A DNA stretch of 64,000 nucleotides, from the NCBI RefSeq assembly GCF_017348835.2, contig NZ_CP071375.1; one strand, 5' to 3'. Made by a program: the position numbers. Every line of letters starts with the position of its first letter. Positions within the stretch are counted from its first letter, which is position 1. Shown here in pieces: positions 30,801 through 33,800 of the stretch. Source of the stretch: Escherichia coli. Its GTDB lineage: Bacteria > Pseudomonadota > Gammaproteobacteria > Enterobacterales > Enterobacteriaceae.

Positions 30801-33800
30801 CGACAAGGCGATATCCTAAAAATTAGCTAGCAGGCAACTTTGATGGCATAGATAATGTTTTTAGTAAAAAAGAGTTGACTGAATATAATACAGCCTCTTC
30901 CTACATAAGAAGGAATGTGCTCACAAAAAAAAACCATTAGTCTGCTTCCTGTTCTTACAATAATCAGTATTATGTATTTTATTTATATAGCAAAATATGC
31001 TTGTTACACCTGTCATAATTAGGCATGGTAAAATTATTGACTGAACCCTGGGGGAGAAAGATGCACAGTGATTATTATAATATGGTTTTTGGTGAAAAAT
31101 TGGCCAATATTTTATATGAAGCTAACTCTCAATTTTTTTACGAGAGAAATGTCATAGAAGAGGCAGTCAACGCTTTATTCTGTGAGCGTGAAATAATAAA
31201 CAACAAGAACATAATAAAGAAGCTGATGTTCTTTTTGTCAGATGTTAATCACACCAAGAAAGATGTTGTTCAGAGCGCACTTAATATTATCATTGACATT
31301 ACATCAGGTGATATTTGAGATTTTACATAAAAGATAATCTCTCAAGGAGTCTTATCTGAAAACGAAATATATAGTCCCTCTCGTTTTGTAATATCGATTG
31401 GCTTTGTTGAATCGGTTACGTACCCCGGAGCCGGTCATATTTTCAGGTAATACACACGCTTTCAGACATTTCGGCTTTCGTCATTTTGGTATCATGGGCA
31501 TAGCTTCTGCTACCTGACCATCATAATCACGCAGCTTCAGTGAAGCAGTGACCACCTGTTTAACCCGGTGTATCGTTATGATCTTATCCAGCAATTGAAC
31601 CGCCCCGGGTTTCCTGGAGAGTGTTTTATCTGTGAACTCAGGCTGCCAGATCATCGTTTCCGATGGAAGCATAATAAGCTTTTTCTGCTTCTGCCGGTGG
31701 AATATGGCCCTGCCTTTCCAGCAATCGTCGATTGTTATACCAGTCCACCCACGTGAGTGTGGTCAGCTCATCATACTGACACGTGCATTACCCCTACCGC
31801 GATAATGCAACCGTACAATATAGGGCGTTTCCTAAACGCAGCCCTCATCACTCCAATCCAACAAGACACAGCATTTTTGATCACGAAGAAAGACAAATAA
31901 TTTCCGTAAATGTTTCCGTTGTTACAAATAACAACAGTGTTTTATATTTCTTTGGCCTCAGGCCCGCGCATGTTGCCATTCGATGTCATTTTCCTGACTC
32001 GTTTCTTCTTTATGGTGTAGTGTGATCTTCACTTTATGGATGCTAACAATATGAAAAGAAAAATTATTCCCGTGCTAATCGGTTGTACGCTCTCTTTCTC
32101 TGCCCTGGCGGCACAACCTACGGCTGAGCGCTATGTCGTCAGTTTTCCAGAAGGCACGCACGTGAACTATGCCGGCGCATTTGCCAGTGCATTCCCGAAC
32201 GGCCTTCCGGTTGGGATAGGTTCTGGCCTGCTGTTCACCGGTAAACAGGGCGATGCCCTGACATTCGCAACTATTACCGATCGCGGTCCGAACGCGGATT
32301 CACCGAAAGAGGGGAAAAACGAAACTAAAATTTTCGTTACGCCAGATTTCGCGCCGCTGCTGATGACGATTCGTGTACAAAACGGCAAAGCGGAGGCCAT
32401 CGATCCCCGTCCTCTGCATGACGATAAAGGCGCGATCAACGGTCTGCCGCTGGCAAGCGACGTGATTGGCTCCACCAATGAAGTGGCCTTCAGCGACACG
32501 TTACATAGACTGAAGGGGGATAATCGCGGGCTGGATACGGAAGGGATCACTCCGGATGGTAAAGGAGGTTAGTTCCAGTTTGCTCACTCGTGTTAAGAAG
32601 GTATTGATCACCTGAACATCCGAATTGGTGAGCCTATTTAATAGAGCGGGTGGTATACCTTTACTAACAATCGCTTTGCGGTGACTTTCGTAGTTTTTAT
32701 TACTCATTGTTGATCCTCAAAAATCATTGTATGGCGGCATTGATCGTTTCCAGCAACCTTTACTTACTCACTTCGAACTGCATCCTCGTAGACTGTTCCA
32801 CTACAATAATCGAAAAGGCGCGGATGTCCATTCAGGTATCCCGCTAATACGTATAGCAATAACAATGGCTTATGCGGCGCGCGCTGTTCACCCTTGTGCC
32901 AGATTTTTATATTGGCAATTGCCTGCTGTAGCGATTTACTGGAAGCTATTGATATCCCTGGCAGTGAAATAATTGCGATCATGCTCGCAAATTTTCTGCT
33001 GTTCAAGCCTGCAAGTGAAGATATATTACCTTGATCTCATTTGTTTTTTTGCTGCCTGTTCTGAGAACGTATAAGGACATTCTCCATGAATAAACTCCCT
33101 GATCATCTTCCGCGGCGGTATATCATCGAAGCTATCCATTTATGGGATGCGGGAGAAACTCATCAGTTCCAGCCTGCGCGGTTGTATGAGATTGAATATC
33201 ATGGCCGACGTTACCCCTCGAAGGCGATTGCTGGCATCGCAGCGACATTGATGACGGGGACGCAATTTACCCCTGCGGATTTCACCGGCGGAATAAAATC
33301 TAAATGTGTCAAGCTACTCATAGAGCAGGGATTTCATATTCATCTGGATAAAGCCGCTGCGGCTCCCATAGCCGACGTTCTGTTCCCGGATGAGTTGCCG
33401 TCGCAGGAGACATACCTTGAAGGTGCGGCGATAAAGGTGACAGTAAACCGCTATGAACGCGATAAAAAGGCCCGAGATAAAGCGGTCGAACATCATGGAT
33501 GCCAGTGCAACGTATGCGGTGTTGATCTGGTGAAGATCTATGGTGATATCGCTGAAGGCTTTATCCATGTGCATCACCTGGTGCCGCTGTCAGCCATTAA
33601 AGAGGATTACCAGCTGGATCCAGTTAATGATTTGCTGCCTGTGTACCCTAATTGCCATGCGATGTTGCACCGACGCAAACCACCGTTTACGCCGGAGCAG
33701 TTAAAAGCGCTGATGGATGCGAATAAATCAAATTAATGAACGCTCACCTTTCGCGCCAAAACTGCAAAATTGCTTCTACAAACTTGTCAGAAATAATCCC

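What the first reader, a model, noticed from the sequence alone, without database searches (positions are those of the whole stretch)
31560..31760. Orphan 3' end of an IS3-family transposase
The minus strand encodes ...WVDWYNNRRLLERQGHIPPAEAEKAYYASIGNDDLAA*, which reads like the C-terminus of IS3-family OrfB proteins, but no transposase body lies upstream. This marks an old IS insertion later truncated, and probably the scar of the deletion that shortened this island.
Basis: partly seen in the sequence, partly recalled or inferred. Interest (0 to 1): 0.25.

Follow-up and report, generated by a model that had tools for sequence, protein, structure and literature searches.

The report
Dead tail of an IS629 element
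This is the last 174 bases of an IS629-type jumping gene, a common and already-annotated piece of E. coli genomic debris, and it is not the scar of the deletion that shortened this island.

Summary
Window 31596-31769 (minus strand) is nt 1137-1310 of a 1310-bp IS629/IS1203-type IS3-family element. It matches a full copy at 171/174 bases. It keeps the last 43 codons of OrfB, the stop codon and an intact 25-bp right inverted repeat. The other 1136 nt are absent from the whole 64-kb window, including orfA, the frameshift site and the DDE core.

The remnant lies among other IS debris. Its repeat tip abuts the 3' end of an IS903-like element (31400-31595). Its truncated end is followed, 22 nt on, by about 55 nt of the left-end tip of an IS110-family element (31792-31846). 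An internally deleted IS3-like relic lies at 30385-30738.

The claim that this is the scar of the island-shortening deletion is not supported. The 31769|31770 junction occurs in about 2255 of 5426 complete E. coli genomes and on at least 54 plasmids, including genomes whose island is longer. The deletion specific to this window is 7,739 bp with its junction at 32570/32571, inside the esterase-like phytase gene. Only 18 genomes share that arrangement.

PGAP already annotates the fragment as a partial IS3-family transposase. It is ordinary and of low interest.

The parts
31596..31769 (-). 3'-terminal 174 bp (nt 1137-1310 of 1310) of an IS629/IS1203-type IS3-family insertion sequence
   Evidence: Ungapped alignment: 171/174 to the L004 copy and 166/174 to the pO157 IS1203-family copy. 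PGAP annotates the same stretch as 'IS3 family transposase, incomplete, missing N-terminus'.
31638..31769 (-). Coding remnant: last 43 codons plus stop of OrfB (residues 252-295 of the OrfB-frame protein); no catalytic residues
   Evidence: Translation. Pfam places rve at residues 126-222 of the full OrfB, and the 48-aa remnant alone hits no Pfam family.
31596..31620 (-). Intact right terminal inverted repeat (TGAACCGCCCCGGGTTTCCTGGAGA, read inward from the tip)
   Evidence: 25-nt match to the left end of IS629-type copies: 100% to L005 and 92% to L004.
31400..31595 (-). 3' remnant of an IS903-like (IS5-family) element, into which the IS629-type element had inserted. It ends in the terminal repeat GGCTTTGTTGAAT at 31400 and carries internal indels.
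   Evidence: 77% identity to IS903B nt 859-1057. The IR match is unique in the window. PGAP calls it a partial, frameshifted IS5/IS1182 family transposase.
31770..31791 (.). 22 nt of unassigned sequence at the truncation junction. The first 5 nt (ATGAT on the minus strand) are shared with a plasmid copy that has a different upstream neighbour.
   Evidence: Alignments.
31792..31846 (-). About 55 nt matching the outer tip of the left end of an IS110-family element; the recombinase gene is absent
   Evidence: 87-90% identity to the first 48-54 nt of the element in plasmid NZ_CP024852.1 (L007), which lies directly upstream of an IS110-family transposase gene. Plasmid backbone matches end at L007 1633, which defines that tip.
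32570..32571 (.). Junction of the 7,739-bp deletion that is specific to this window. It truncates the esterase-like phytase gene and has a 2-bp overlap (TA).
   Evidence: PGAP marks the gene as missing its C-terminus in the identical F2_81 stretch.
30385..30738 (+). Separate IS3-like relic: nt 1-238 and nt 1134-1245 of IS3, with an internal deletion and a degenerate right end
   Evidence: 88% and 84% identity to K-12 IS3.

Best explanation
The feature is the inert 3' terminal remnant of an IS629-isoform insertion sequence (IS3 family). Shown: it is 174 bp, equal to nt 1137-1310 of the element. It has an intact right inverted repeat and the last 43 codons of OrfB. It has no orfA, no frameshift site, no DDE core and no left end, so it can neither make transposase nor be transposed as a unit. 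Its repeat tip abuts the 3' end of an IS903-like element. Inferred history: an IS629-type element inserted into the IS903-like element. A later deletion then fused IS629 nt 1137 to sequence lying 22 nt from the tip fragment of an IS110-family left end, upstream of an esterase-like phytase gene. That deletion would have removed IS629 nt 1-1136, the 5' part of the IS903-like element and most of the IS110-type element. The resulting patchwork (IS903' - IS629' - IS110' - esterase) then spread as one block through E. coli chromosomes at the fec/leuX island, and onto IS1-flanked plasmid segments. The event that shortened the island in this window is a separate, recent 7.7-kb deletion ending at 32570/32571.
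For: The catalytic domain lies outside the remnant. IS629, IS1203 and IS3411 are isoforms whose sub-types differ by 4-5% (PMC3271280). That matches the 95-98% identities seen here and the 95.0% identity between the two full copies. The IS903-like neighbour with its terminal IR is shown, and the IS110-family tip. The junction is shared by 2255 genomes, and every copy of the esterase upstream region listed in that search carries it. The same 48-aa junction-spanning translation is 100% identical on 54 plasmids. One example is pL73-2, where IS1 copies flank the module. The window-specific 7,739-bp deletion is shown. Two of the three substitutions against the IS consensus are non-synonymous (A to T, L to Q), as expected for neutral decay.
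Against: No genome with the undeleted ancestral arrangement was found, so the single-deletion history is inference. The 22 nt at 31770-31791 are unassigned. Plasmid pYUSHP6-3 (L012) has the same IS629 breakpoint plus 5 nt and then a different upstream neighbour, a RelE/ParE toxin gene. At least one more rearrangement therefore happened next to the junction, and its order is unresolved. ISfinder was not available, so the isoform name (IS629, IS1203 or IS3411) rests on PGAP labels and one paper.
Confidence: 0.93

Rival explanations
1. One reading: the truncated end of the IS fragment (31769|31770) is the scar of the deletion that shortened this particular island.
For: The IS body is missing and the break is abrupt, so a deletion did occur here at some time. 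The window's island is shorter than in relatives.
Against: The same junction is present in about 2255 complete genomes and on plasmids. It is present in WCHEC020031, whose island has the intact esterase gene and 7.7 kb more DNA. The missing 7,739 bp map to a junction at 32570/32571, and only 18 genomes share the window's arrangement.
Confidence: 0.04
2. The orphan right end is still a live substrate. Transposase from other IS629 copies, possibly with the IS-excision enhancer, acts on the lone inverted repeat and causes deletions that start exactly at its tip.
For: An 18-bp indel (CTTAGCCGCGTGTCCATT) lies exactly flush with the repeat tip. It is absent in the window and pL73-2 and present in L011 and L012. 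Both alleles are common among the listed hits. IEE-promoted excision of IS629 and associated genomic deletions are described in the literature (abstracts listed, e.g. PMC9943667).
Against: This is a single event. It may have happened while the element was still complete. The polarity (deletion versus insertion) is inferred only. No experiment was done and no allele phylogeny was built.
Confidence: 0.1
3. The remnant is retained because it encodes something useful. Candidates are the 36-aa ORF (31638-31748), the 63-aa chimeric ORF spanning the IS629 and IS903-like remnants (31481-31672), or a regulatory signal for the flanking genes.
For: The block is at least 99% identical in more than 2200 genomes. 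The 63-aa ORF is annotated as a hypothetical protein on pL73-2.
Against: High identity is expected from recent common descent. Two of three substitutions are non-synonymous. The 48-aa remnant has no Pfam hit. The only sigma-70-like promoter match upstream of the esterase gene lies outside the IS scraps at 31919-31948, and promoter and terminator counts are near the shuffled expectation. There is no relevant Rfam match.
Confidence: 0.02

Closest known systems
IS629 and its isoforms IS1203 and IS3411 (IS3 family, 1310 bp)
   Same: 95-98% nucleotide identity over nt 1137-1310. Same right inverted repeat (TGAACCGCCCCGGG...). Same OrfB C-terminus (isoform relationship from PMC3271280).
   Different: Only 13% of the element is present. 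There is no left end, orfA, frameshift/pseudoknot region or DDE core, so it is neither autonomous nor mobilisable.
Truncated IS629 copies reported in E. coli O55:H7 and ancestral O157 strains
   Same: These are partial IS629 copies fixed in a lineage and used as evolutionary markers (PMC3271280).
   Different: This remnant sits at a different locus, the fec/leuX island. It is far more widespread (about 42% of complete E. coli genomes, plus plasmids) and is nested with IS903-like and IS110-family scraps.
IS911/IS30 nested relic in the K-12 KpLE2 (leuX) element
   Same: It is a nested, decayed IS remnant in the same leuX-associated island. The window itself carries a partial IS3-family gene interrupted by IS30 upstream of fecE. 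The K-12 comparison is from my own knowledge, not tested here.
   Different: It involves a different IS3-family member and position. The K-12 island has yjhU-yjhR genes where this window has the IS scraps and the esterase gene.

Membership tests
IS3 family, IS629/IS1203 isoform group | Nucleotide identity to reference copies over the segment present | tested here: met
   171/174 to L004 and 166/174 to the pO157 IS1203-family copy.
IS3 family, IS629/IS1203 isoform group | Terminal inverted repeats ending 5'-TG...CA-3' at both ends | tested here: not met
   The right repeat is intact at 31596-31620. No left end exists anywhere in the 64-kb window.
IS3 family, IS629/IS1203 isoform group | OrfB with the DDE (rve) catalytic core | tested here: not met
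   rve covers residues 126-222 of the full OrfB, while the remnant covers 252-295. The remnant alone has no Pfam hit.
IS3 family, IS629/IS1203 isoform group | orfA plus a programmed -1 frameshift site | tested here: not met
   Full copies carry it (PGAP 'programmed frameshift' and pseudoknot feature). Only nt 1137-1310 are present in the window.
IS3 family, IS629/IS1203 isoform group | 3-bp target-site duplication flanking the element | not testable with these tools
   The left end is missing. A complete copy (L004) shows an AAT duplication.
IS5 family, IS903 group (neighbouring remnant 31400-31595) | Terminal repeat GGCTTTGTTGAAT and homology to the transposase 3' end | tested here: met
   77% identity to IS903B nt 859-1057, including the terminal 13 nt. 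The transposase gene is otherwise absent.
IS110 family (remnant 31792-31846) | Left-end non-coding region directly upstream of a DEDD recombinase gene | tested here: inconclusive
   48-54 nt match the tip of the left end of an IS110-family element in L007 at 87-90%. That tip is defined by backbone matches ending at L007 1633. There is no recombinase gene here and no Rfam model hit.

The most novel reading that the evidence does not exclude
The lone IS629 right end is not fully dead. It may still be recognised in trans by IS629 transposase or IEE, producing tip-flush deletions such as the 18-bp one seen between alleles. That would make this widespread remnant a recurrent local deletion hotspot in the fec/leuX island.
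Probability: 0.08. Interest if true: 0.3.

Novelty: already known. Interest (0 to 1): 0.06.

Why it matters
It matters little. The remnant is a fixed, already-annotated piece of IS debris. Its practical value is as a lineage marker for the fec-esterase module, which is shared by chromosomes and plasmids, and as a caution. An IS scrap lying near a shortened island is not necessarily the breakpoint. Here the real junction lies 800 bp away inside a gene and has no IS at its left end.

Tried and rejected
- Pfam on the 48-aa remnant gave no hit because it is too short. I scanned the full OrfB instead.
- Rfam scans of the window (30300-32100) and of the IS110-type element in L007 gave only sub-threshold chance hits. 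No bridge-RNA-type family was found.
- Promoter and terminator scans and repeat searches around the remnant were at background level.
- I searched for a repeat of the leuX 3' end that would mark the island's right boundary at the 32571 junction. No exact repeat of 12 nt or more was found.
- I tried to count the +18/-18 alleles by BLAST with a 100-nt junction probe. It failed because joined pieces gave about 80% coverage for both alleles.
- The idea that an IS110-type element had inserted into IS629 was rejected. The sequence beyond the IS110 tip (31847-32035) has no IS629 homology.
- The answer did not need them.

Full report
**Context.** The window is E. coli chromosome around the leuX tRNA gene (16313-16397). 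Over 30300-34800 it is 100% identical to strain F2_81. The gene order, taken from PGAP annotation of matching genomes, runs as follows:
- lptFG, yjgR, ahr, leuX
- island genes and an IS3-family/IS30 relic
- fecEDCBA-fecR-fecI, then IS1F
- a stretch of IS scraps with a ymgB/ariR-like gene
- a truncated esterase-like phytase gene
- a restriction-endonuclease fragment, an HNH endonuclease gene, then nanS, nanM, nanC and fimB.

**Observation.** The minus strand at 31769-31638 reads ELTTLTWVDWYNNRRLLERQGHIPPAEAEKAYYASIGNDDLAA followed by a stop. BLAST against 5,426 complete E. coli genomes returns thousands of IS3-family copies matching this stretch at 88-98% identity, some labelled 'IS3-like element IS1203 family'.

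I fetched two full copies. One is a chromosomal 1310-bp element (L004) and the other is the pO157 IS1203-family copy (L005). Window 31596-31769 aligns without gaps to nt 1137-1310 of both, at 171/174 and 166/174. The two full copies are 95.0% identical to each other. This fits the published statement that IS629, IS1203 and IS3411 are isoforms whose sub-types differ by 4-5% (PMC3271280).

The match runs to the very last base of the element. The 25-bp right inverted repeat (TGAACCGCCCCGGGTTTCCTGGAGA, read inward) is intact at 31596-31620.

**What is missing.** In the full OrfB-frame protein, Pfam places the rve catalytic core at residues 126-222. The remnant covers residues 252-295 only, and on its own it hits no Pfam family. 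A BLAST of the full IS copies against the whole 64-kb window finds nothing else. So orfA, the frameshift region, the DDE core and the left end are all absent. The fragment is dead. Two of its three differences from the closest full copy are non-synonymous.

**Neighbours.** Three other IS remnants lie in the same stretch.
- *IS903-like element, 31400-31595.* Past the repeat tip, this stretch is the 3' end of an IS903-like element. It shows 77% identity to IS903B nt 859-1057, has internal indels, and ends in the terminal repeat GGCTTTGTTGAAT at 31400. The IS629-type element therefore sat inside an IS903-like element.
- *IS110-family tip, 31792-31846.* Homology to IS629 stops at 31769|31770. After 22 unassigned nt, this stretch matches the outer tip of a roughly 200-bp sequence at 87-90% identity. 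In plasmid NZ_CP024852.1 that sequence lies directly upstream of an IS110-family transposase gene. Many plasmids match the backbone only up to that tip, which marks it as the element's left end. No recombinase gene is present in the window.
- *IS3-like relic, 30385-30738.* This holds nt 1-238 and nt 1134-1245 of IS3.

The 1.7 kb between IS1F and the esterase gene therefore holds debris from four different IS.

**Likely history (inferred).** An IS629-type element inserted into an IS903-like element. A later deletion then joined IS629 nt 1137 to sequence next to the tip of an IS110-type left end, upstream of the esterase gene. I found no undeleted ancestor.

One plasmid, pYUSHP6-3, has the same IS629 breakpoint plus 5 nt (ATGAT). 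Beyond that it has a different neighbour, a RelE/ParE toxin gene. Further rearrangement therefore occurred beside the junction.

**Is it the island-shortening scar?** No.
- A 601-nt probe spanning the junction and the esterase upstream region (31700-32300) is covered at 80% or more in 2265 records from 2255 genomes. All other listed hits match only the IS portion, or a short piece of the IS110-type left-end repeat. No copy of the esterase upstream region without the scrap appeared in the sampled ranking.
- The junction-spanning 48-aa translation is 100% identical on 54 plasmids. On pL73-2 the module is flanked by IS1 copies.
- In WCHEC020031 the arrangement has the same orientation as the window. 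The IS scraps are identical there and the esterase gene is complete. It is followed by an IS66 element, two zinc-ribbon genes, an inovirus Gp2-family gene, an hha-like gene and IS2/DUF932 fragments before the endonuclease/nanS flank.
- Direct comparison shows the window lacks exactly 7,739 bp of that stretch. The junction is at 32570/32571 with a 2-bp overlap (TA).
- Only 18 of 5,426 genomes share the window's arrangement across that junction.
- The right endpoint coincides with a boundary where other genomes carry different island content.

**Small extra.** An 18-bp indel lies exactly flush with the IS629 repeat tip. It is absent in the window and pL73-2 and present in L011 and pYUSHP6-3. Both alleles are common among listed hits. 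A tip-flush deletion would suit transposase or IEE action at the IS end. IEE-promoted excision of IS629 and IS629-associated genomic deletions are described in the abstracts listed. This is a single event of unknown timing.

**Verdict.** The feature is a correctly spotted but ordinary IS629-isoform remnant. PGAP already annotates it as 'IS3 family transposase, incomplete' in thousands of genomes. Its truncation is old and widely shared, and it is unrelated to the local 7.7-kb deletion.

Noticed in passing
window 32570-32571: This is the junction of a 7,739-bp deletion relative to WCHEC020031-type genomes. It truncates the esterase-like phytase gene after about 173 codons and joins it to the endonuclease/nanS flank. 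Only 18 of 5,426 complete genomes share the arrangement.
   Followed up: yes
window 31595|31596 (L011 1483-1500): An 18-bp indel (CTTAGCCGCGTGTCCATT) lies exactly flush with the IS629 right-repeat tip. Both alleles are common in E. coli. It may be a transposase- or IEE-type adjacent deletion.
   Followed up: partly
window 31792-31846; L007 1633-1827 and 3840-4054; L006 2340-2554: A roughly 200-bp left-end sequence of an IS110-family element recurs on about 380 plasmids, often as two copies. It contains the palindrome CGTACAATATTGTACG near its tip. The window keeps only the tip. There was no Rfam match.
   Followed up: partly
window 30385-30738: An IS3-like relic has an intact left repeat, an internal deletion of about nt 239-1133, and a degenerate right end.
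   Followed up: partly
window 16374-16397: Strain F2_81 carries an 11.3-kb P4-like satellite element next to leuX, with integrase, primase-helicase and psu/ogr-like genes. The window lacks it. The two alignments overlap by 24 bp at the 3' end of leuX, which looks like the attachment repeat.
   Followed up: partly
L003 (plasmid pL73-2) 1169-6139: The esterase-like phytase gene with the same IS629 and IS903-like scraps sits between two IS1 copies on an IncHI1B/N/X1 plasmid. One IS1 sits about 100 bp beyond the IS903-like terminal repeat. The module may move as an IS1-bounded segment.
   Followed up: no
L012 (plasmid pYUSHP6-3) 2752-2940: This plasmid has the same IS629 truncation point plus 5 nt (ATGAT), but a RelE/ParE toxin gene lies upstream instead of the esterase region. 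This creates an in-frame ATG ORF (MNNDELATLTW...).
   Followed up: partly
L008/L015 (strain 2013C-3513): The whole segment from the P4-like element through fec to the esterase gene is inverted relative to the window and lies between inverted ISCro1 (IS66-family) copies. This suggests an IS-mediated inversion in that strain.
   Followed up: no
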